Assembly (NCBI GenBank): GCA_015493225.1
Contig: WGDO01000087.1
Location: 514-64,513 of the forward strand
Source of the DNA: Patescibacteria group bacterium
GTDB taxonomy: Bacteria > Patescibacteriota > Minisyncoccia > Moranbacterales > DUUL01
Reading direction: 5' to 3'
Length of the DNA: 64,000 bases
Both the position numbers and the translations under genes were made by a program. A model generated the notes under the pieces. That model did not search any database, had not been told where the DNA came from, and was given only the letters and a program-made list of their open reading frames with translations. Of this stretch, positions 22,329 to 30,951 are shown piece by piece (the first letter of the stretch is position 1; each line of letters opens with the position of its first letter).

Positions 22329-22811
22329 TTATACAATCTTCCACACAAAAATCCCAATAATAACCAAAGCAAAAATTATTTTCAAGACCATCCCAAAAAC
22401 AATTCCCATAATTGTACCAAAACCGGCTTTGGTTGCCGAAGAAGTTCGTTCATATTTTAAATATTCTCCCAACCAGGCACCCACAAAAGAGCCAATGAAC
22501 AAACCAAAGACACTAACCGCTATAAATCCAAAAATTCCGCCCAACAACGCCCCCAGAACTCCATACCAACTAGCCCCAAAAGTTTTTGCCCCCAGAACTC
22601 CGGCCAAAAAATCCAAAGTCATACCAATTAAGGCGATAATCCCCGTTAGAACCACCACTCCCACCGTCACCTCTTGAAAACCAGTCGCCCAACCATAAAC
22701 CAAAACACCTAACCATAAAATTGGCAACCCTGGAATAGCCGGCAAAACGACTCCCAGTAAACCTAGTGCAAATAAAAACACCACTGCAATTATTAATATT
22801 GTTGTTCCCAT
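22329..22811 (-). CDS. DUF456-family small membrane protein
   Basis: 160 aa with four TM helices rich in GxxxG and a typical DUF456-like N-terminus (PGLPILWLGVLVYGW). Confidence 0.5.
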   Translation of the reverse strand: MGTTILIIAVVFLFALGLLGVVLPAIPGLPILWLGVLVYGWATGFQEVTVGVVVLTGIIALIGMTLDFLAGVLGAKTFGASWYGVLGALLGGIFGFIAVSVFGLFIGSFVGAWLGEYLKYERTSSATKAGFGTIMGIVFGMVLKIIFALVIIGIFVWKIV

Positions 22812-22856
22812 ATAATTTTGATAATTATTTATAACAAATTTAACTTGTTATAAAAA

Positions 22857-23408
22857 TTATGTTATTAAACTTTTAAAACTAACTCCTTTTTTATCTTTCT
22901 CAGAAATTATTGGCTTGTCAATCTCATATTTATCCAACTGCCAATCTACATTTAAATCCTTATCATTCCAAGCTATCCCAACCTCTGATTCCGGATTATA
23001 CAAATTGGTACATTTATAATTAAAAATTGTATCATCCTTCAATGTGATAAACCCATGTAAAAATCCCGCCGGTATCCAAAACTGCTTTTTGTTCTCCTCG
23101 GTCAATTCTACACTTTCCCACTGACCATAGGTTGGTGAATTCGGTCGGGCATCCACTGCCACATCTAAAACCGCTCCGGTAATAACTTGCACCAACTTCC
23201 CCTGAGCATAGGGCTCTTTTTGCATATGCAACCCCCGCAAAACTCCTTTGGTTGACTTAGATAAATTATCCTGAACAAACTCTGGTTCAATACCGTCCTT
23301 TTGATAACGCTCTTTATTGTAGGTTTCCACAAAAAACCCTCTCTCATCACCAAATACATCCGGCTCAATAATCAACAATCCCTCAATTTTTGTTTTTGTA
23401 ATTTTCAT
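22857..23408 (-). CDS. rfbC: dTDP-4-dehydrorhamnose 3,5-epimerase
   Basis: IEGLLIIEPDVFGDERGFF and RGLHMQ cupin motifs. Length 183 aa. Confidence 0.88.
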   Translation of the reverse strand: MKITKTKIEGLLIIEPDVFGDERGFFVETYNKERYQKDGIEPEFVQDNLSKSTKGVLRGLHMQKEPYAQGKLVQVITGAVLDVAVDARPNSPTYGQWESVELTEENKKQFWIPAGFLHGFITLKDDTIFNYKCTNLYNPESEVGIAWNDKDLNVDWQLDKYEIDKPIISEKDKKGVSFKSLIT

Positions 23409-23607
23409 AATATTGCAAAATTAACAATAAATATTTAATAACCTCAGACCATAATTATCTTCACATTCATAATACCATTTTCACCATTCTAAATCAAATA
23501 CAAAAGACCAAATAAACTTATTATAAAAATTATATTTGCACCATTGATTTTTTATTTAAATATGCTATTATGTACTTTGTGAAGAAAGTTTAATAATTTA
23601 TACATAT

Positions 23608-23692
23608 GGAGAGTTGCCAGAGCGGTCGAATGGGACACCCTGCTAAGGTGTTGTGCCTCCGGGTACCTAGGGTTCGAATCCCTAACTCTCCG
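23608..23692 (+). tRNA. tRNA-Ser (anticodon GCT)
   Basis: Acceptor GGAGAGT/ACTCTCC, anticodon stem ACACC/GGTGT with loop CTGCTAA, long variable arm, T arm GGTTCGAATCC. Confidence 0.8.
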
Positions 23693-23965
23693 CACTAAAG
23701 TTCGAATCATACAATCAATACTCATTATTCACTCGTATCATATTCTCCACATTAAAAAAATAAAAAGGGCTTGCTAAATGCAACCCTTTTTATTTTATTG
23801 TGATAATAAATCATAGATTATACCCCTATCTACCCCCTCCCCTACTCTCTATTCTCTACTCTCTACTATCTAGTGTCTAGTGTCTAATATCTAGTACCTA
23901 TCTCACCAACGCTTTTTGCTTAAGAGTAGAAAAATAGCTTGTAAAAGTATTTGAACCATAAAATC

Positions 23966-25345
23966 TTACTCTCTAATTATTGCCAACAATTCATCTCTTT
24001 TTTCTTCCATCATTTCTTTAGTTTTCGCTTCCACATTTAGACGCAAAACCGGTTCCGTATTACTTTGTCGAACATTAAACCACCAATCGGGGTAATCAAT
24101 TTTAATTCCGTCCAACTCCGATAATTCGCCATCGGAATATTTTTCTTTTAATTTTTCTATCACCGCTTCTTTATCTCCTACTTCTGAATTAATTTCCCCA
24201 CTATGATAATATCGTCGTAAATCTTGGACCAATTCAGAAATAGGTTGTCCAGTCTTCGCCATTAAATTTAACAAAGTCAAGGCAGCCAAAGTACTAACTT
24301 CACCATTTTTATTCGCCTGAAAATAATAATGCCCGGAAAGTTCTCCGGCAAATAAAGCATTTTCTTCTAACATTTGCGCTTTAATCAAGGTGTGCCCTAC
24401 TCGACACTCGTGAGCGATGCCACCATTCTCCTCAATAACTTCTTTGACCGCTCGCGAAGAACGCAAATCATATAAAATCACCCTACCCTTATTTTCCTCT
24501 TTTTCCAACAAAACCTTAGCAATCAAGCCTGTTACTAAATCCATTGGAATTATCACTCCTTTTTCATCCACAAAACCAACTCGATCGGCATCTCCGTCAT
24601 AGGCAATTCCTAAATCAGCATTCTCTGAAACAACTTTCTTTTGTAAATTGACTAGCGTTTCTGTTTTTAGAGGATTAGCCTCATGAGAATTTTGATAAGC
24701 GCTGTTTTCCAAATCACAATCCAATTTAACCACCTCAAAATTATTGGCCAAATATTTTTCATAAAACGGCAACTCCAGGACACCCATCGCATTGGCACAA
24801 TCAACAACAATCTTAAATTTCTTATCACCCAATTTGGCAAATTTCACAAAATAATTATAATAATCTTCTTTGATGTCATATTCCGACAACATACCTTTTG
24901 AAGAATGGGCTTTTTTAGGAATATTAATTTCCTCATTTTCTCGTGCTAAGACTCCAACCTTAGTAACGTCAATTCCAACTTCTCCCCCAACCGGCACAGC
25001 GTTGCGCAAACAAGTTTTTACCCCATTCCATTCACCAGGATTATGAGAAGCGGTTACCGACATCGCTCCATCCACATCCTTTAAAAAGTGAGAAGAAAAA
25101 TATAGCATCGGCGTTGTAATCACTCCCAAAGCAACCACATCCACTCCCATATCCAAAATACCTTGCATCAAAGCATTATATAAAACTGGACTAGATTCCC
25201 GCGCATCACGCCCGACAGCCATTTTTTTTACCCCCAAAGCTTTAACCATTTCCTGCCCAATGAGATAAAAAGTTTTCTCATCACAATCTTTACCATAAAT
25301 TCCCCTAATATCATAGGCCTTAAAAATTTCCGGATTTGTTTTCAT
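23966..25345 (-). CDS. Phosphoglucomutase/phosphomannomutase family protein
   Basis: Active-site phosphoserine loop TASHNPGEWNGVK and the four alpha-D-phosphohexomutase domains. Confidence 0.85.
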   Translation of the reverse strand: MKTNPEIFKAYDIRGIYGKDCDEKTFYLIGQEMVKALGVKKMAVGRDARESSPVLYNALMQGILDMGVDVVALGVITTPMLYFSSHFLKDVDGAMSVTASHNPGEWNGVKTCLRNAVPVGGEVGIDVTKVGVLARENEEINIPKKAHSSKGMLSEYDIKEDYYNYFVKFAKLGDKKFKIVVDCANAMGVLELPFYEKYLANNFEVVKLDCDLENSAYQNSHEANPLKTETLVNLQKKVVSENADLGIAYDGDADRVGFVDEKGVIIPMDLVTGLIAKVLLEKEENKGRVILYDLRSSRAVKEVIEENGGIAHECRVGHTLIKAQMLEENALFAGELSGHYYFQANKNGEVSTLAALTLLNLMAKTGQPISELVQDLRRYYHSGEINSEVGDKEAVIEKLKEKYSDGELSELDGIKIDYPDWWFNVRQSNTEPVLRLNVEAKTKEMMEEKRDELLAIIRE

Positions 25346-25461
25346 ATATTTATACTACTTTCTCCATAAGCTATGCTCACAAAGAAAATATTATTTAAAA
25401 ATTATTTTCACACCTATTGTGTCATCACTACTAAGATTTGTCAATAAATACACTCTACCAC

Positions 25462-26220
25462 TTATTTTTCCGCTTTTCTTATTTCAGCTACCCACTCACT
25501 GTTTCTATTACGAAAATCGTCTTCGATTGACAATATATCATATCTATTGGCTGTAAAATTAACTGTTCTAATTTCATCACCAACAACCTCTTTAACCTCA
25601 CGAACTGTTCCTGAATGAGAAATAATCTTATCCCCAGATGATAATCCCTCTACAGCCTCTTGAAACTTATATTCTTTCCCCTGATCTTTTTTCTCTTCTT
25701 TAGCATTCTCTTCCAATGTCAATCTATACCAAGAATTATTAGACTCAATAAGATATGTACCATCCGCACACAATTTAATCCCTCTAACCATTGGAATTTT
25801 AAATATCCTCCCATCAGGAACTTGTGCAGCAAAAATACCATTGATTTCACATTTACCTATAATGATTTCTCCATTAAATTTCTGTCCCAAATCAAACACT
25901 GCCACTTTTCCATTTTTACTACCCACTTTTTGAATTATTACCTGTTTGTTAGTTATATCATCAATAGAATTAATATCTTCAGCACTTAATAAATCTTTCT
26001 CAAAATCCACCTTTAATTTTTCTCTCTTTAAACCGTCTATTTGCGATTGAATTTTTTGAGCAAGTTTTGGCTTTTTTTGTGCTACTGCATCTAATCTGCC
26101 TTGAGCTGCCACAATCTCATTGTCAATTTCTTTCAATCTTTTTTCCAACTGTAAAGATTGTTCTGTCTTATCTTCTTGTATATTACCAACACCATCCCCT
26201 GGCATTTTTTCTCCACTCAT
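25462..26220 (-). CDS. Hypothetical protein, member 1 of a tandem paralog triplet (coiled-coil N-terminus)
   Basis: Starts MSGEKMPG. Shares the motif SGDKIISHSGTVRE / EGDMIILNDGRQL / EGDVIILNSGERY with the two upstream paralogs. Conserved 16-nt junction tttattttaattatta. Confidence 0.5.
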   Translation of the reverse strand: MSGEKMPGDGVGNIQEDKTEQSLQLEKRLKEIDNEIVAAQGRLDAVAQKKPKLAQKIQSQIDGLKREKLKVDFEKDLLSAEDINSIDDITNKQVIIQKVGSKNGKVAVFDLGQKFNGEIIIGKCEINGIFAAQVPDGRIFKIPMVRGIKLCADGTYLIESNNSWYRLTLEENAKEEKKDQGKEYKFQEAVEGLSSGDKIISHSGTVREVKEVVGDEIRTVNFTANRYDILSIEDDFRNRNSEWVAEIRKAEK

Positions 26221-26236
26221 ACTTTTATTTTAATTA

Positions 26237-26698
26237 TTAATTTATCTGTTTATCCGCCTCTTTTAATTCAATTATTTTATTATTAAGGTTATCAATTTCC
26301 ACCTGTAATTCAGCTACCCGCTGCTCCAGTCTTAATATTTGTTCTTGATTATTACCCTTATCATATTCACTGTCATTTTCCATTATTTCCCCTCTGCTAA
26401 TTAAAACTATTCTATCCACAGAACCTCCATTAACAAGGTCTTCTATCCCATGCTTAGATATTGGTTGTCCCTCCCCCTGTTCATTATTAATAACCATTCT
26501 CCACTCACTCTTATCACCTAATTTCTTTGGAATAATTTTTAATTGCCTACCATCATTTAGTATTATCATATCACCCTCTTGTATCTTCTCCACTTTTTCC
26601 AGCAGCCCTTTTTTAACTTCCTCTGAATCTTTACCGTACTGTCTGTCTTTATTCTGATTACTTAATCCATTATCTGGAATATTAGAATGCATACTCAT
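26237..26698 (-). CDS. Hypothetical protein, member 2 of tandem paralog triplet (coiled-coil C-terminus)
   Basis: See 25462-26220. N-terminus MSMHSNIPDNG. Confidence 0.5.
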   Translation of the reverse strand: MSMHSNIPDNGLSNQNKDRQYGKDSEEVKKGLLEKVEKIQEGDMIILNDGRQLKIIPKKLGDKSEWRMVINNEQGEGQPISKHGIEDLVNGGSVDRIVLISRGEIMENDSEYDKGNNQEQILRLEQRVAELQVEIDNLNNKIIELKEADKQIN

Positions 26699-26798
26699 AT
26701 TTTTATTTTAATTATTAGATTTGTTATTTACCACCCCATTTTTCTTAATCCAACCATTTCTCTCCTAATTAAGCTTTGTTCTAATAATATATCCTTTA

Positions 26799-27146
26799 TT
26801 ACAAAGCCTCGGCTTCATAAATTCCTTCATTATCTTTTATTGCACCTTCATCATCAGCAAGCACAAACTCTTTAACTCGTCCAAATTCAACAAAATCCTT
26901 AAGTCCTTTAACAGAAACCAAAGACTCCTCGGGAATTACCCCACTCTTCTTACTACGTTCAATGATACACCTCCACACCTCTTTACCCTCTATTAAGATT
27001 GGCTCGGTAAGCGTGTAACGTTCGCCGCTATTTAAAATAATTACATCCCCTTCTTTCAAATTATCCACTTTTGCTAATAACTCCACAGATCTTTCTTTGC
27101 CCTTATTATCATTAGTGTTTGCCCCTGGTATTTTTTCTACACTCAT
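26799..27146 (-). CDS. Hypothetical protein, member 3 of tandem paralog triplet
   Basis: See 25462-26220. N-terminus MSVEKIPGANT. Confidence 0.5.
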   Translation of the reverse strand: MSVEKIPGANTNDNKGKERSVELLAKVDNLKEGDVIILNSGERYTLTEPILIEGKEVWRCIIERSKKSGVIPEESLVSVKGLKDFVEFGRVKEFVLADDEGAIKDNEGIYEAEAL

Positions 27147-27196
27147 ACTTTTATTTTTAATTTTTGATTATTACCCATTTAATTTATCATCCTTAA

Positions 27197-27664
27197 TTAT
27201 ACCATATCTACCCCAACAATTCTACTATTTTTCACACCCTTACCATATTTAAATTTCAACAACCAATACTTTTTCGGCCAGATTTTCTTAATTCGTTCCG
27301 GCCACTCCACTAAAATTAAATTATTTTTGTCAGCAATAATTTCTTCCCAACCCAAATCCAAGACACTCTCCTCATCAACCCGATAACAATCCAAATGATA
27401 AACATTTTTGAGTTGAGAGGCCCGGCCTCTCAACTCATACTTTTTCATAATCACAAAAGTAGGCGAAGTAAAAGGCCCTTCCGCCCCAATCGCTTCCAAT
27501 AAAAATTGACTAAAAGTAGTTTTACCTGTCCCCAACTCTCCCTGTAACAAAATTACATTTCTATCCGCCTTGCCATCTAGGTAAGACGCCGGGCTTCTTA
27601 CCTCTACTAAAAATTCTTTAGCAAATTGTTTGGTATCTTGTAAATTTTTTAATACTTTTTCCAT
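27197..27664 (-). CDS. tsaE: tRNA threonylcarbamoyladenosine biosynthesis protein TsaE
   Basis: P-loop LQGELGTGKTTFSQ and TsaE-typical SPTFVIM...YHLDCYRV motifs. 155 aa. Confidence 0.85.
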   Translation of the reverse strand: MEKVLKNLQDTKQFAKEFLVEVRSPASYLDGKADRNVILLQGELGTGKTTFSQFLLEAIGAEGPFTSPTFVIMKKYELRGRASQLKNVYHLDCYRVDEESVLDLGWEEIIADKNNLILVEWPERIKKIWPKKYWLLKFKYGKGVKNSRIVGVDMV

Positions 27665-27691
27665 CTTGAAATTTTATAAACTTTATGGACT

Positions 27692-28840
27692 TTATGACTT
27701 TATAGACTTTCGACTTGTGCTTGTCACACTCCACACAAAATATACCACAAAAACACCCAAAATACCAAAGGTAACCACCGACAAAACTTCAAATGACCAA
27801 ATTCCTAAAATTTTTCCAATCATCAACATATAGATTGACATAAAAACCCTAGTAGTTAAACTTTTTAATGACATAACACTAGCGCGAATAGAATTTTTAG
27901 CATATTTGTTAACTAATACTGTCGTTCTAACAGCAAACATTCCTCTTAAAAAATGTATACTCCAAATTACTAAGGCCAAGGTAAATATCTGATTTACAAA
28001 GCCCAATAATAATGTCCCTAATAGTAATAAAGGAATTGTATATTTTAGCCTAATATAATATTTTGTTGAAGTTATAGCCGTCCCCATTGCCATAAACAAT
28101 ATGCTCATAGACATCACTGTACTTAAATAAATAATTGGTATATTTTTTACATTAAATAATACTGGTAAAAAATATTTATAACTAAAAAATGTTGCCAAAA
28201 ACGCACTAGTCATCAACACCAGTCCTCTAAGCTTTCTATGATTTTTAAGATGCTTTAAACTACCAAAAGCAATTTTATAAATATTTCCAAATTCAGATTT
28301 TTTACCTTGGAAATTATTTTTAACTTTAATTTGATTAAATATTATAGCAGCTAAAAGCATACTTAAACCATTTAATAAATATGGAAAAATAATATTAATG
28401 GTAAACAACCAACCACCAATAAAAGTTGTTAAAGCTATCCAAACAAAGCCAATCGTTTTTATTCTTGCTAAATCTCTCTGAAAATTATCAGATATTTTAT
28501 GCAACACCGCCACATTACTTCCTGAACGCATTGAAGAAGATAATCCCACCAGAATAAAAATTGTAAGATAAAAATAAAATCCAGCTGGGATAATGAGCAA
28601 AAATTGCAAAACTGAACCAAACATACCACTCCAAACAACTGACCCTTTGTGAGAAAACCTATCCGCTAATATTCCAGTAGGAAATTCAAATATAACCACA
28701 GCCACAGAAAAAGCGGCTACTATATAATAAACCTGCTCAATAGTTAGTCCCCGTTCCATAAAATAAAGTGGGCCAACGGCTAACCACCACATTGACCCTC
28801 GTAAAGTACTAGCAATTGTATACTTTTGTAAATTTGTCAT
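27692..28840 (-). CDS. MFS-like multipass transporter (paralog of 14841-15989)
   Basis: About 12 TM helices. Shares EFPTGILADRFSHKGS with the 14841 paralog. Confidence 0.55.
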   Translation of the reverse strand: MTNLQKYTIASTLRGSMWWLAVGPLYFMERGLTIEQVYYIVAAFSVAVVIFEFPTGILADRFSHKGSVVWSGMFGSVLQFLLIIPAGFYFYLTIFILVGLSSSMRSGSNVAVLHKISDNFQRDLARIKTIGFVWIALTTFIGGWLFTINIIFPYLLNGLSMLLAAIIFNQIKVKNNFQGKKSEFGNIYKIAFGSLKHLKNHRKLRGLVLMTSAFLATFFSYKYFLPVLFNVKNIPIIYLSTVMSMSILFMAMGTAITSTKYYIRLKYTIPLLLLGTLLLGFVNQIFTLALVIWSIHFLRGMFAVRTTVLVNKYAKNSIRASVMSLKSLTTRVFMSIYMLMIGKILGIWSFEVLSVVTFGILGVFVVYFVWSVTSTSRKSIKS

Positions 28841-29074
28841 ATTCCTGTGAAATTCTAATTGATAATTTTATGTTTTTTTAATATAGCTTTAGAATATCAA
28901 AATAACAAAAAATAAGCAATAAAAAATTTGCTTATTAAAAAAAACAATCTTTTATTTTTGTATTTAAAAATTATTGTATTATAAAAAAATTTTAACAAAT
29001 CTTATTTATAATTATATAAATAAGATTATCTTTTAATAGTTTATCTCCACTTTTTCGTTTAAAAATAAAAAAAT

Positions 29075-29110
29075 TCCGAGGATTGGTTTATCCCCGGAAA
29101 AATAGTACAA
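29075..29110 (-). terminator. Rho-independent terminator downstream of 29121-29441
   Basis: On the minus strand: ccggggataaaccaatcctcgg hairpin followed by aatttttttatttt. Confidence 0.45.
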
Positions 29111-29120
29111 TAACAATTAC

Positions 29121-29441
29121 CTACCGGAGGAATGTAAATATTCCTGGTAGTCCAGCAAGCAGGGTAAAATCTTCGGGATTAACTACGACCCCATCGATAT
29201 TACTTTTCTCGATAAACTGCTTAAATTCTCCTTGAGAACAAACGCAAGAAGAATTTCCAAAAACATCTCCACCCCGATGAGAACCCTGAGAATGGTCCTG
29301 AAGATTCACCACTAAATAATCTGGAAGTGACATCTTCTCTATTCGTTTCATCACCTTCTGAATGGCTTTAGGACAAAGCCACCAAACCAATACCATTCCT
29401 TCTGTCTGGTTCATTTTCCTCTCCTCGCAGATTATTGACAT
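29121..29441 (-). CDS. Small Cys-containing hypothetical protein
   Basis: 106-aa ORF (possibly starting at an internal Met). No confident family call. Confidence 0.35.
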   Translation of the reverse strand: MSIICEERKMNQTEGMVLVWWLCPKAIQKVMKRIEKMSLPDYLVVNLQDHSQGSHRGGDVFGNSSCVCSQGEFKQFIEKSNIDGVVVNPEDFTLLAGLPGIFTFLR

Positions 29442-29583
29442 ATTAGTCTCACTGCAATTTTTGAATTTTTAATTGTTGCCTATTTGTACTAAACATATAT
29501 TGTTATAGCATTAAAGCTACAAAATGTCAAGTAAATTTTACTTAATATTTTTTTATTTTTAAGTAGCATTAAAACTTAAAATC

Positions 29584-29800
29584 CAAATCCACCCCTAACC
29601 ATTTTTTGTTCACGGTTCACAGTTCACAGTTCACGGTTTATTTTTTAAAAAGTTTCACAAGACAGGTGTTGGAGGGAAACTAGATAAATCCACCCCTAAC
29701 CCCTCCTTTATCCCATTACGCCAAGGCTACGCGGGACAAGCGCTGGAGGGGAACTACTATCTACCATCTACTATCTACTATCTACTATCTATCCCCCAAC
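29584..29800. repeat. Composite repeat block: aaatccacccctaacc unit, (gttcac[ag])x4, long family A unit and (ctactatc)n
   Basis: gttcacggttcacagttcacagttcacgg at 29613-29640. The unit aaatccacccctaacccctcctttatcccattacgccaaggctacgcgggacaagcgctggaggggaac is at 29686-29760. ctaccatctactatctactatctactatct is at 29761-29792 and overlaps the last codons and stop of capA-like 29785-30951. Confidence 0.8.
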
Positions 29801-30951
29801 CCAAACTCCCCTTCCTCAATCTGTTTTTTCACATCATCCCCCACCACCGACCTAGTGGATAGATTTTGTAAAAACTTTCCTCGTTGTTCCCCGGCCATCA
29901 ATTCCAATTCTCCACTTCTTTGCTTAAATAATGGTATCAAAGTAAATTTAACTTGTCCATCTCCCAGTAAAACTCCCACTCCTAAAATAGACCGAACATC
30001 TTCAGAAAAATATTGGTCAAAAACAAAATTTCCCAAAGAATAAAAAATCACTTTATTTTTATAAATTTCAATGGGCTGAACCACATGAGGATGAGCGCCG
30101 ATAATCAGATCCGCTCCGGCGTCAATAAACAGATGAGCCAATTTTTGCTGTCGCTCATTATTAACTAATTTATATTCTTGCCCCCAGTGAGGATAAACAA
30201 TCACAAAATCGCTCTGCGTCTTCAGGGTTTTAATAATCTCAACAATTTGCTCCGGAAAAAAACCAGCAAACTGATTATAATTCACAAAACCAATTTTCCG
30301 TCCTCCCACATTCTTTATAATACTCATCTTAGCTAAATCCAAGGGATCTCCAAAATAACCAATACTATTCTTAGTTAAAATCTCCTCTGTCTGTTCTAAA
30401 CCTTCATTATGAAAATTTAAAATATGATTATTACCAATGTTTACCAAATTTATCCGATTAGCCTCCAAAAAATTAATGGCTTGTTCGGAATCAAAAGTAA
30501 AACGAAAGTGATTGGGATTTTCAACCGGCTGACCAACCGACACCGATGGCTTATCGGTAATCGGACCTTCTAAGTTAACCACATTTAAATCCTGTCCCCA
30601 AAATAACCGCTCCAATTTTTCCGTAAAAAATCCCACACCCTTTCTGTCCATCAAAATCCTATTCTGCCGATCCAACATCACATCCCCAAAAAATAACATT
30701 TTTATTTGTTTTATTTTTTTGTTTTGTTTTATTTTTAAATCATCATCCGTCTCAACCCTACCGGTTAAACTACCTAAAATTGTTTTAACATCATTCTTGT
30801 CTTGATTGTTATTTTCAACCTTCCCAATAATATTACCACCACGCACTATCACATTATTATTTGATAAAATATATTTTCCAAACAAAAAAAGAATAACTAT
30901 TAAAATAGCTAAAATTATTACTATAAAAACATTTCTTTTCTTGATGCTCAT
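29785..30951 (-). CDS. CapA-family (poly-gamma-glutamate synthesis-type) metallophosphatase with N-terminal TM anchor
   Basis: MLFFGDVMLDR and HPHWGQEY...GAHPHVVQPIE calcineurin-like phosphoesterase motifs typical of CapA/PgsA. Confidence 0.7.
   Translation of the reverse strand: MSIKKRNVFIVIILAILIVILFLFGKYILSNNNVIVRGGNIIGKVENNNQDKNDVKTILGSLTGRVETDDDLKIKQNKKIKQIKMLFFGDVMLDRQNRILMDRKGVGFFTEKLERLFWGQDLNVVNLEGPITDKPSVSVGQPVENPNHFRFTFDSEQAINFLEANRINLVNIGNNHILNFHNEGLEQTEEILTKNSIGYFGDPLDLAKMSIIKNVGGRKIGFVNYNQFAGFFPEQIVEIIKTLKTQSDFVIVYPHWGQEYKLVNNERQQKLAHLFIDAGADLIIGAHPHVVQPIEIYKNKVIFYSLGNFVFDQYFSEDVRSILGVGVLLGDGQVKFTLIPLFKQRSGELELMAGEQRGKFLQNLSTRSVVGDDVKKQIEEGEFGLGDR

What the first reader, a model, noticed from the sequence alone, without database searches (positions are those of the whole stretch)
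25462..27146. Tandem triplet of fast-diverging small paralogs with a shared EGD-IIL-xG core, conserved gene junctions, and coiled-coil extensions
Three consecutive minus-strand ORFs (252, 153 and 115 aa) each start with MS-x-x-x-(I/M)PG, share a roughly 30-aa core (EGDMIILNDGRQLKIIPKK, EGDVIILNSGERYTLTEP, SGDKIISHSGTVREVKEV), and are separated by nearly identical 16-40-nt junctions (tttattttaattatta). Outside the core they differ in length and carry coiled-coil segments at opposite ends. They lie downstream of tsaE and an MFS-like gene in one co-oriented string. Locally expanded, rapidly diverging small protein families are candidates for surface or host-interaction or toxin-immunity functions. 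I cannot assign a function.
Basis: seen in the sequence. Interest (0 to 1): 0.5.

Follow-up and report, generated by a model that had tools for sequence, protein, structure and literature searches.

The report
Strain-variable small-gene cassettes in Moraniibacteriota
Between two housekeeping genes of an uncultured Moraniibacteriota (CPR) bacterium lies a small hot spot where fast-evolving genes for soluble proteins of unknown function, all sharing one conserved start module, are gained, lost and swapped between closely related strains.

Summary
The three minus-strand ORFs (A 115 aa, B 153 aa, C 252 aa) and the repeated junction are real. They are not a triplet of paralogs. A and B are true paralogs (BLASTP E=7e-11) with a moderately confident Sm/SH3-like small beta-barrel core. 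The body of C belongs to a different family and has a 160-165-aa allele, D, in sister strains. Its 'GDKII' motif fails profile tests (hhalign probability 1.6%; shuffle p=0.06). What all cassettes share is a ~45-nt 5' module: an AT-rich leader plus ATG-AGY-NNN-GAA-AAA-ATR-CCR-GGG (MSxEKxPG). It is conserved in most cassettes across four haplotypes, whose protein bodies are only 26-41% identical while flanking PGM is 90-96% identical. The haplotypes are A-B-C, A'-C, A'-D and A4-D'. One haplotype is a mosaic whose crossovers fall inside the 5' module and inside the conserved PGM promoter block. The proteins have no signal peptide or TM segment and are acidic. They match nothing in Pfam, NCBIfam, PADLOC, PHROGs, PDB sequences or phage collections. 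The A family has only four sequence clusters in ~15 billion proteins. Omega is 0.2-0.65, against 0.03 for PGM. Most likely this is a lineage-restricted, recombining accessory cassette locus encoding a cytoplasmic protein pair. Its function is unknown, and a conflict role is only speculation.

The parts
26799..27146 (-). Gene A (115 aa): A-type protein with a disordered acidic N-terminus, an N-terminal helix and a five-strand small beta-barrel core (residues ~21-100)
26237..26698 (-). Gene B (153 aa): a diverged A-type paralog with a C-terminal coiled-coil extension (~118-150). It is present only in haplotype H1.
   Evidence: BLASTP against A gives E=7e-11. Heptad segment 118-145. Absent from L001-L005, L087 and L089. 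Present in L006, L093 and L094.
25462..26220 (-). Gene C (252 aa): a C/D-type protein with an N-terminal helical hairpin (10-79), a beta-rich middle domain (92-171) and an extra C-terminal 82 aa carrying the 'GDKII' motif and a terminal helix
   Evidence: ORF. AF2. Homologous to D of L087 over residues 1-170 (E=7e-6). The C-terminal part is not significantly A-like. It gives a sub-threshold YajC-like hit (E=0.0066, 16.7 bits against a cut-off of 28.2).
27122..27171 (-). 5' module of cassette A (AT-rich leader plus the first 8 codons, MSVEKIPG)
   Evidence: Repeat family D2, 84% identical to the C module. Alignment of modules.
26693..26742 (-). 5' module of cassette B (the leader is identical to C's over 25 nt; the coding part has diverged)
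   Evidence: (family D3).
26196..26264 (-). 5' module of cassette C (leader plus MSGEKMPG). It contains the left crossover of the mosaic haplotype H2, at CDS +11 to +22.
26699..26798 (-). A-B spacer (100 nt). It is alignable with the A4-D' spacer of haplotype H4; the similarity was not tested statistically.
   Evidence: Alignment.
25416..25444 (-). Promoter-like block for PGM (TTGACA-17-CACAAT), conserved in all haplotypes. It contains the right crossover of the H2 mosaic.
25417..26255 (-). Block that is 95-100% identical between the window and strain L001, while both flanks are 77-90% identical. This is a recently exchanged C cassette.
   Evidence: Sliding identity. dS is 0.041 for C against 0.75 for PGM.
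27197..27664 (-). tsaE, the conserved upstream boundary of the variable interval
   Evidence: Pfam PF02367, E=3e-31.
23966..25345 (-). Phosphoglucomutase/phosphomannomutase, the conserved downstream boundary
   Evidence: Pfam PGM_PMM I-IV. Used to find related loci.

Best explanation
The tsaE-PGM interval of this Candidatus Moraniibacteriota lineage is a small accessory-gene hot spot holding an array of expression cassettes.

Shown:
- Each cassette consists of a conserved ~45-nt 5' module followed by a fast-evolving body. The module is the AT-rich leader ...TAATAATTAAAATAAAARY, then ATG AGY NNN GAA AAA ATR CCR GGG, which encodes MSxEKxPG.
- The bodies fall into two families with no detectable relationship. 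The A-type is a Sm/SH3-like small beta-barrel (genes A and B here). The C/D-type has a helical hairpin plus a beta-rich domain (gene C here).
- Every haplotype keeps one A-type gene followed by one C/D-type gene. The window's haplotype adds a second, old A-type paralog, B.
- Cassettes are exchanged between strains by homologous recombination, with crossovers in the conserved 5' module and in the conserved PGM promoter block.

Inferred:
- The 5' module serves as a common transcription/translation start signal. It contains a -10-like TAAAAT about 7 nt before the ATG, and the genome largely lacks Shine-Dalgarno sites. It also acts as the homology patch that makes cassettes portable.
- The A-type and C/D-type proteins are soluble and cytoplasmic and act together as a pair.
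- Their rapid change and the co-existing alleles reflect weak or diversifying selection, perhaps in a strain-specific interaction (phage, host or kin). The biochemical activity is unknown.
For: - ORFs and module repeats.
- A-B homology: E=7e-11.
- C-D homology: E=7e-6.
- Four haplotypes: H1 A-B-C (window, L006, L093, L094); H2 A'-C (L001-L005); H3 A'-D (L087, L091, L092); H4 A4-D' (L089, L090).
- Divergence: A-type 35-64% and C against D 26-28% amino-acid identity, while PGM is 90-96%.
- Omega: 0.27-0.61 for A and 0.22-0.65 for C/D, against 0.02-0.05 for PGM.
- Mosaic H2: the A gene is 94% identical to H3 and 80% to H1; the C gene is 97.9% identical to H1; PGM is ~88% to both. The left crossover lies at CDS +11 to +22 of the module and the right one in the PGM promoter block.
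- H3 and H4 co-occur in one sample, ERZ23491057.
- Four contigs break just upstream of the A' gene, three of them 48 nt and one 123 nt upstream.
- No TM segment or signal peptide; the proteins are acidic.
- Only 4 of 49 long genes in the window have an SD-like motif.
- In other Moraniibacteriota the interval is empty or holds unrelated genes.
Against: - No functional evidence of any kind exists: no family, domain or defence-system match.
- Omega below 1 and the small sample mean diversifying selection is not demonstrated. Some pairwise comparisons (for example A in the window against L001) are, by my own rough chi-square on the counts, not clearly different from neutrality.
- The roles proposed for the 5' module (promoter or leaderless start, recombination patch) are inferred from sequence alone. 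AT-rich leaders are generic in this genome.
- Only one recombination event has mapped breakpoints.
- The pairing of A-type and C/D-type genes could reflect shared ancestry of the locus rather than a functional interaction.
Confidence: 0.6

Rival explanations
1. Single-family reading. A, B and C are three tandem paralogs that share one ~30-aa EGD-IIL-xG core. C has simply diverged further and acquired extensions.
For: The motif sits in the same local context (helix, then L..GD.II...G) in all three proteins. The 4-sequence HMM gave an empirical p=0.002 for C residues 171-252. The C-terminal part of C gives a weak YajC-like (SH3-like barrel) hit, so it may also be a small barrel. All three genes share the 5' module.
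Against: hhalign gives probability 1.6% over 25 columns. The HMM scores C at E=0.31 among window ORFs. Adding the divergent member A4 lowers the score to p=0.06. Residues 1-170 of C are homologous to D, which has no such motif or domain at all. GD-x-[IV] followed by a hairpin is a generic feature of SH3-like barrels such as YajC and KOW (my own knowledge).
Confidence: 0.15
2. Conflict module. The A-type plus C/D-type pair is a two-gene toxin-antitoxin, abortive-infection or anti-phage (or anti-host-defence) system kept polymorphic by frequency-dependent selection.
For: The locus has two small adjacent co-oriented cytoplasmic genes that always occur together. The upstream partner is acidic (net charge -1 to -8) and the downstream partner neutral (about 0) in the D alleles. 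It is extremely lineage-restricted, highly diverged alleles co-exist in one sample, cassettes are exchanged by recombination, and it sits in an insertion hot spot. SH3-like barrels occur in several toxin and antitoxin families (my own knowledge).
Against: PADLOC, Pfam, NCBIfam and PHROGs give no hits. No DNA-binding antitoxin domain is recognisable. Each gene carries its own leader and the genes are not translationally coupled (spacers of 16-115 nt). Omega is below 1. No relative was found in viral contigs or phage genomes.
Confidence: 0.15
3. Nearly neutral young ORFans. The genes are lineage-specific, weakly constrained passengers in a recombination-prone intergenic hot spot, with little or no adaptive function.
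For: The A family has only four sequence clusters and the C/D family about five, in 5.8-15 billion proteins. Omega is high (0.2-0.65). B can be lost, and the MFS gene next door is also lost in some strains. The interval holds unrelated genes in sister species.
Against: Intact ORFs of 106-252 aa are maintained in a 33% GC genome across four haplotypes, despite saturated dS (>1) between some of them. By my own rough chi-square on the counts, purifying selection is detectable for the D alleles (Nd 43 against Sd 31, with about 58:16 expected under neutrality) and for A' (10:9). The fold-determining residues of A are invariant. The 5' module is strongly conserved.
Confidence: 0.2
4. Exported effectors. 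The shared N-terminal octapeptide MSxEKxPG is a non-classical export or processing tag that sends both protein types to the cell surface or into the host cell of this putatively episymbiotic bacterium.
For: The N-terminal peptide is conserved across two otherwise unrelated protein families and four haplotypes (7 of 9 cassettes). The locus is embedded among cell-envelope genes (PGA_cap, Mur ligase, PGM, RmlB/C). Coiled coils are present.
Against: There is no hydrophobic segment, lipobox or prepilin-like motif. B and D' of L089 have lost the motif. The conservation extends into the untranslated leader and includes synonymous positions, which fits a nucleotide-level signal (translation start or recombination) as well as a peptide-level one. 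No secretion genes are adjacent.
Confidence: 0.07

Closest known systems
Sm/LSm/Hfq and other SH3-like small beta-barrel domains (Tudor, KOW, CarD N-terminal, FeoA, DUF1653)
Mycoplasma variable surface-protein gene families (vlp/vsa type; from my own knowledge)
   Same: Both are tandem, co-oriented genes whose 5' non-coding region and first codons are highly conserved, while the bodies are highly variable and strain-specific.
   Different: There is no signal peptide or lipobox, no internal tandem repeats, no invertase and no inverted recombination sites. Here the variation is seen between strains through homologous exchange, not as phase variation within a clone.
Integron gene-cassette arrays
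   Same: Both are short, co-oriented, strain-variable ORFan cassettes separated by a recurring junction sequence.
   Different: The junction is a 25-50-nt AT-rich direct repeat at the 5' end of each gene, without the imperfect inverted repeats of attC. The Pfam-scanned neighbours (window 22329-30951) and the Pfam-annotated ~20-kb locus L093 contain no integrase. The mapped exchange is homologous, not site-specific.
Type II toxin-antitoxin gene pairs
   Same: Both are two small adjacent cytoplasmic genes that always occur together, are strain-variable and sit in an insertion hot spot, with an acidic upstream partner.
   Different: No toxin or antitoxin domain is recognisable. The genes are not overlapping or coupled. 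No toxicity data exist.
YajC (preprotein translocase subunit)
   Same: C residues 180-220 weakly resemble the YajC barrel motif (L..GD.[VI]......G....V).
   Different: Scores are far below the curated cut-offs (16.7 against 28.2 bits; 13.7 against 44.2). There is no N-terminal TM helix. The genomic context differs.

Membership tests
   A-B gives E=7e-11. For C: BLASTP E=0.04-2.5, HMM E=0.31, hhalign probability 1.6%, shuffle p=0.06 with the best profile.
   An exact 25-mer precedes B and C. 50-nt repeats at 76-84% identity link all three starts. The coding part is shared by A and C only.
SH3-like / Sm-like small beta-barrel fold (A-type core) | Five-strand bent antiparallel barrel, with an N-terminal helix in the Sm topology | tested here: inconclusive
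Sm/LSm/Hfq protein family | Sm1/Sm2 sequence motifs detectable by family profile | tested here: not met
   No Pfam or NCBIfam hit at E<=10 or E<=1. No PDB sequence hit.
Sm/LSm/Hfq protein family | Ring-shaped hexamer or heptamer that binds RNA | not testable with these tools
   No multimer prediction or experiment is available. The net charge of -7 makes RNA binding less likely, which is an inference.
Type II toxin-antitoxin system | Recognisable toxin and/or antitoxin domain | tested here: not met
   Pfam, NCBIfam and PADLOC give no hits.
Type II toxin-antitoxin system | Two small adjacent co-transcribed genes that always occur together | tested here: met
   An A-type gene followed by a C/D-type gene appears in all four haplotypes. 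Co-transcription was not tested.
Type II toxin-antitoxin system | Toxicity of one partner, neutralised by the other | not testable with these tools
   This needs an expression experiment.
Integron cassette array | attC sites (imperfect inverted repeats) at cassette boundaries | tested here: not met
   No inverted repeats at the junctions, only direct AT-rich repeats.
Integron cassette array | Adjacent integron integrase (IntI) | tested here: not met
   The neighbours scanned with Pfam, and the annotated genes of L093 (~20 kb), include no integrase or recombinase. The rest of the window was not scanned.
Diversity-generating retroelement target | Template/variable repeat pair near a reverse transcriptase, with variation confined to a C-terminal variable region | tested here: not met
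   No ~100-nt repeat pair lies in 25300-27300. No RT appears among the annotated neighbours. The differences in A are spread over the whole protein.
Secreted or surface proteins (Sec signal, lipoprotein, pilin) | Hydrophobic N-terminal signal or TM segment | tested here: not met
   The maximum 19-residue Kyte-Doolittle mean is <=0.98. The first 20 residues are strongly hydrophilic (-0.7 to -1.6).
Phage-derived genes | Homologs in phage or viral sequence collections | tested here: not met
   IMG/VR scans with the profile and the DNA pattern found nothing. tblastn against INPHARED found nothing. PHROGs gave only non-significant coiled-coil hits.

The most novel reading that the evidence does not exclude
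The conserved 5' module is a dedicated cassette-exchange and expression signal. Its encoded octapeptide MSxEKxPG is a shared targeting tag. On this reading, the locus is a previously undescribed system by which ultra-small episymbiotic CPR bacteria shuffle strain-specific pairs of effector or recognition proteins (Sm/SH3-like barrel plus coiled-coil partner) used in host or phage interaction.
Probability: 0.1. Interest if true: 0.7.

Novelty: new variant of a known kind. Interest (0 to 1): 0.35.

Why it matters
Most CPR/Patescibacteria proteins have no known function, and the basis of their strain-level specificity toward hosts and phages is poorly understood. This locus is a compact and clearly delimited example of within-species gene-content and allele turnover in such a genome, and its recombination breakpoints are mapped to the nucleotide. 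It defines two new, extremely narrow protein families and a conserved start module shared by unrelated genes. If the pair proved to mediate strain-specific interactions, the locus would be a useful marker and an entry point for experiments. If not, it is a tidy case of ORFan turnover at an intergenic hot spot.

Tried and rejected
- **P0009.** This 1702-aa hit of the exhaustive HMMER search (E=6e-16) is rejected. It is a SpaA_4 prealbumin-fold repeat protein, and 11 near-identical repeats each contribute only ~5 bits.
- **C's C-terminal 82 aa as a fused A-type core.** The first test was encouraging (p=0.002). It weakened with a more diverse profile (p=0.06) and with hhalign, so it remains unproven.
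- **GTDB representative genomes.** A scan with the A/B profile found no relative.
- **Viral collections.** No relatives were found, by profile, by DNA pattern or by tblastn. BFVD Foldseek returned only uncharacterised weak hits.
- **afdb50 fold library.** It was unavailable.
- **AF2 of C.** The model is poor outside the helical hairpin (pLDDT 45), so no fold search was attempted with it.
- **Rfam.** No RNA family lies in 25200-27400.
- **Literature.** A search for 'Moranbacteria' and 'hypervariable' returned only unrelated 16S studies.
- **Integron, DGR and phase-variation models.** All were rejected for lack of attC or inverted repeats, an integrase or an RT.
- **Promoter and terminator scan.** The count of promoter-like sites equals the shuffle expectation (11 against 11.0). 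Only the conserved TTGACA-17-CACAAT block upstream of PGM is used, and it is supported by cross-strain conservation rather than by the scan.
Full report
**What is there**

The window is a low-GC (~33%) contig with nearly all genes on the minus strand. It appears to be NCBI MAG GCA_027039935.1, contig JALUMK010000042.1: the exact B and C proteins and the same gene order occur there. Related PGM loci place it in Candidatus Moraniibacteriota (Patescibacteria/CPR).

Three co-oriented ORFs lie between tsaE (27664-27197) and a phosphoglucomutase/phosphomannomutase gene (25345-23966):
- A: 27146-26799, 115 aa
- B: 26698-26237, 153 aa
- C: 26220-25462, 252 aa

An MFS gene lies upstream of tsaE.

**Checking the observation**

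A and B are real paralogs, with 34% identity over 89 residues (E=7e-11).

C is different:
- BLASTP finds only the N-terminal MSxEKxPG (E=0.04) and a 15-residue 'GD.II..SG' patch (E=0.09).
- An HMM of the A/B family scores C at E=0.31 among the window's ORFs.
- hhalign gives 1.6% probability over 25 columns.
- A shuffle test of C residues 171-252 gave p=0.002 with a 4-sequence profile. This rose to p=0.06 once the divergent family member A4 was added.
- The motif also resembles YajC at sub-threshold level. It is a generic first-hairpin signature of SH3-like barrels (my own knowledge).

The 'shared core' therefore holds for A and B only.

The junction repeat is real. TAATAATTAAAATAAAARTATGAGT occurs exactly before B and C and nowhere else in 64 kb within 3 mismatches, with 0 expected by chance. 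50-nt direct repeats link the starts of C and A (84% identity) and of C and B (76%). The first 24 coding nucleotides, ATGAGYNNNGAAAAAATRCCRGGG, occur only at A and C.

**The proteins**

None of the three matches Pfam, NCBIfam, PADLOC or PHROGs significantly, nor any PDB sequence.

AF2 on the 4-sequence A/B alignment gives a moderately confident core (pLDDT 75-83 for residues 21-100). It has helix 14-28, strands 35-38, 43-52, 55-63 and 73-78, helix 79-87, and strand 91-95.
- Foldseek against the PDB ranks Sm/LSm proteins first (E~1e-2, probability 0.96-0.99, TM 0.3-0.5).

I read this as a Sm/SH3-like small beta-barrel, without membership in any named family.

B adds a C-terminal heptad-repeat helix (118-145). 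For C, only an N-terminal helical hairpin (10-79) is predicted with confidence, and the rest is low-confidence beta structure. All the proteins are hydrophilic, lack TM segments and signal peptides, and are acidic (A -7, B -8, C -4). They are therefore predicted to be soluble and cytoplasmic.

**Distribution**

The families are extraordinarily narrow.
- Word-indexed searches of 5.8 billion clusters found only near-identical or 63%-identical copies of A, and a 96% copy of C.
- An exhaustive HMMER profile search of 1.84 billion representatives found only A' (P0002), B (P0008) and a 106-aa member A4 (P0010).
- The same search returned a 1702-aa protein, which is a repeat-inflated false positive: it has SpaA_4 repeats that score ~5 bits each.
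- No relatives occur in GTDB species representatives, IMG/VR or INPHARED phages.

**Comparative anatomy of the locus**

Contigs from related populations give four haplotypes of the tsaE-PGM interval:

| Haplotype | Content | Loci |
|---|---|---|
| H1 | A-B-C | window, L006, L093/L095, L094 |
| H2 | A'(112 aa)-C | L001-L005 |
| H3 | A'-D (160 aa) | L087, L091, L092 |
| H4 | A4 (106 aa)-D' (165 aa) | L089, L090 |

D is homologous to C residues 1-170 (25% identity, E=7e-6). It lacks C's last 82 residues.

Every haplotype thus keeps one A-type gene followed by one C/D-type gene. B is an extra A-type copy found only in H1. Synonymous sites between A and B are saturated, so B is an old duplicate, and its absence elsewhere is more likely loss or non-acquisition than recent duplication.

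In more distant Moraniibacteriota the same interval varies:
- It is empty in L042 (~240 nt).
- It holds what I read as a YerC/TrpR-like gene in L039 (judged by eye from the translation, not tested).
- It holds unrelated ORFs in L007.
- It holds an ORF plus a 636-aa gene that looks like dxs (again judged from the translation) in L008.

The interval is therefore a hot spot for lineage-specific genes.

**Rates of change**

While PGM is 90-96% identical at the protein level among the four haplotypes, A-type proteins are 35-64% identical and C against D is 26-28%.

| Gene | omega (Nei-Gojobori) |
|---|---|
| A-type | 0.27-0.61 |
| C/D-type | 0.22-0.65 |
| tsaE | 0.16-0.31 |
| PGM | 0.02-0.05 |

For A, dS is comparable to or lower than that of PGM (0.35 against 0.75; 1.07 against 1.21). 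The protein divergence therefore reflects a roughly 10-fold higher non-synonymous rate, not older alleles.

By my own rough chi-square on the counts, purifying selection is still detectable in the D alleles (Nd 43 against Sd 31) and in A' of H2 against H3 (10 against 9). The ORFs stay intact in a 33% GC genome. They are real genes under weak constraint. Positive selection is neither shown nor excluded with so few sequences.

**The 5' module and cassette exchange**

In nine cassettes from four haplotypes the leader ...AAT(T/A)ATTAAAA(A)TAAAARY-ATG-AGY is conserved. Seven of the nine continue NNN-GAA-AAA/CGA-ATR-CCR-GGN, giving MS[VIGA]E[KR][IM]PG, whether the body is A-type or C/D-type.

The genome as a whole has few SD-like motifs (4 of 49 long genes) and AT-rich leaders are general. 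The leader's composition is therefore ordinary, but the extended identity is specific to this locus.

The leader contains TAAAAT ending 7 nt before the ATG. This is compatible with a -10 element that yields a leaderless or near-leaderless transcript, which is an inference only.

H2 is a clear mosaic.
- Its A' gene is 94% identical to H3 and 80% to H1.
- Its C gene is 97.9% identical to H1.
- Its PGM is ~88% identical to both.
- The identity profile against the window jumps from 77-88% to 95-100% over 26255-25417, then falls back to 77-90%.
- dS is 0.041 for C against 0.75 for PGM.
- Informative sites place the left crossover between CDS positions +11 and +22 of the shared module. H2 equals H3 through ATGAGCGTAG and equals H1 from AGGGGAT onward.
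- The right crossover lies inside the conserved TTGACA-17-CACAAT block upstream of PGM.

At least one cassette has therefore moved between lineages by homologous recombination that used the conserved module boundaries.

Two further observations indicate population-level heterogeneity at this locus. H3 and H4 co-occur in one sample (ERZ23491057). Four independent contigs of the H2 strain break just upstream of the A' gene, three of them 48 nt and one 123 nt upstream.

**Interpretation**

The best-supported description is a lineage-restricted accessory cassette array. It has a conserved start module and two families of fast-evolving soluble proteins that travel as a pair, with gain, loss and exchange by homologous recombination.

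What the pair does is unknown. I consider four readings:
- A conflict or strain-specificity function (TA-like, or phage- or host-related).
- Nearly neutral ORFan turnover.
- Export via the N-terminal tag.

None has direct support, and their probabilities are given in the rival list. Integron, DGR and phase-variation models fail their defining-feature tests: there are no attC-like or inverted repeats, and no integrase or RT among the annotated neighbours.

**Verdict**

The finding is a neat but modest example of strain-level cassette turnover in a CPR genome, involving two new and very narrow protein families. I rate it a new variant of a known kind, with interest 0.35.

Noticed in passing
window 27692-28840 (MFS gene); L087 10-68; L089 3652-4173: The MFS gene upstream of tsaE is itself polymorphic. 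In L087 the MFS start region (window 28868-28817) abuts tsaE directly. In L087 and L089 the tsaE ORF begins MTNLQKYT, the same N-terminus as the window's MFS protein, so a deletion has fused the MFS start to tsaE. L091, which also carries haplotype H3, still has an MFS gene.
   Followed up: partly
window 23409-23965; L001 2685-4619: Between PGM and rmlC the window has only a tRNA-Ser (23608-23693, plus strand). The related strain L001 carries two extra genes there (Lnb_N, 263 aa; NUDIX, 184 aa). Its tRNA-Ser-like segment matches the window in the opposite relative orientation. This is a second indel or inversion hot spot about 2 kb from the cassettes.
   Followed up: no
whole window (gene starts listed): Only 4 of 49 ORFs of at least 150 aa have an SD-like motif within 20 nt of the start. 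Most have AT-rich leaders with TAAAAT or TATAAT-like hexamers about 7-12 nt upstream of the ATG. This suggests non-SD or leaderless initiation is the rule in this genome.
   Followed up: partly
window 29121-29441 (minus strand) and the gap 28841-29784: A 106-aa ORF with no Pfam match lies between the PGA_cap and MFS genes, in a ~940-nt stretch that is otherwise unassigned. It is called as a gene in the NCBI and Logan contigs. In L089 PGA_cap is followed directly by tsaE, so this ORF is absent there.
   Followed up: no
window 27409-27437 (plus strand, inside tsaE): A strong 13-bp GC-rich hairpin followed by a T-run sits on the strand opposite to tsaE, inside its coding sequence. It corresponds to the RGRASQL insertion region, which differs in length between tsaE orthologs.
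   Followed up: no
L007 (DQTL01000265.1) and L008, L016, L023 and others: Several GTDB representative MAGs whose PGM and tsaE are closest to this Moraniibacteriota window carry record titles such as 'Lutibacter sp.', 'uncultured Bdellovibrionales' or 'Micavibrio sp.'. These are probably mis-binned or mislabelled contigs.
   Followed up: no
window 26699-26798; L089 4554-4668: The 100-nt A-B spacer of H1 is alignable with the 115-nt A4-D' spacer of H4 (shared ...GGAGAGAAATGGTTG...-like stretch). H2 and H3 have only a 35-nt spacer. The long spacer may therefore be ancestral and could hold a regulatory element. The similarity was not tested statistically.
   Followed up: partly
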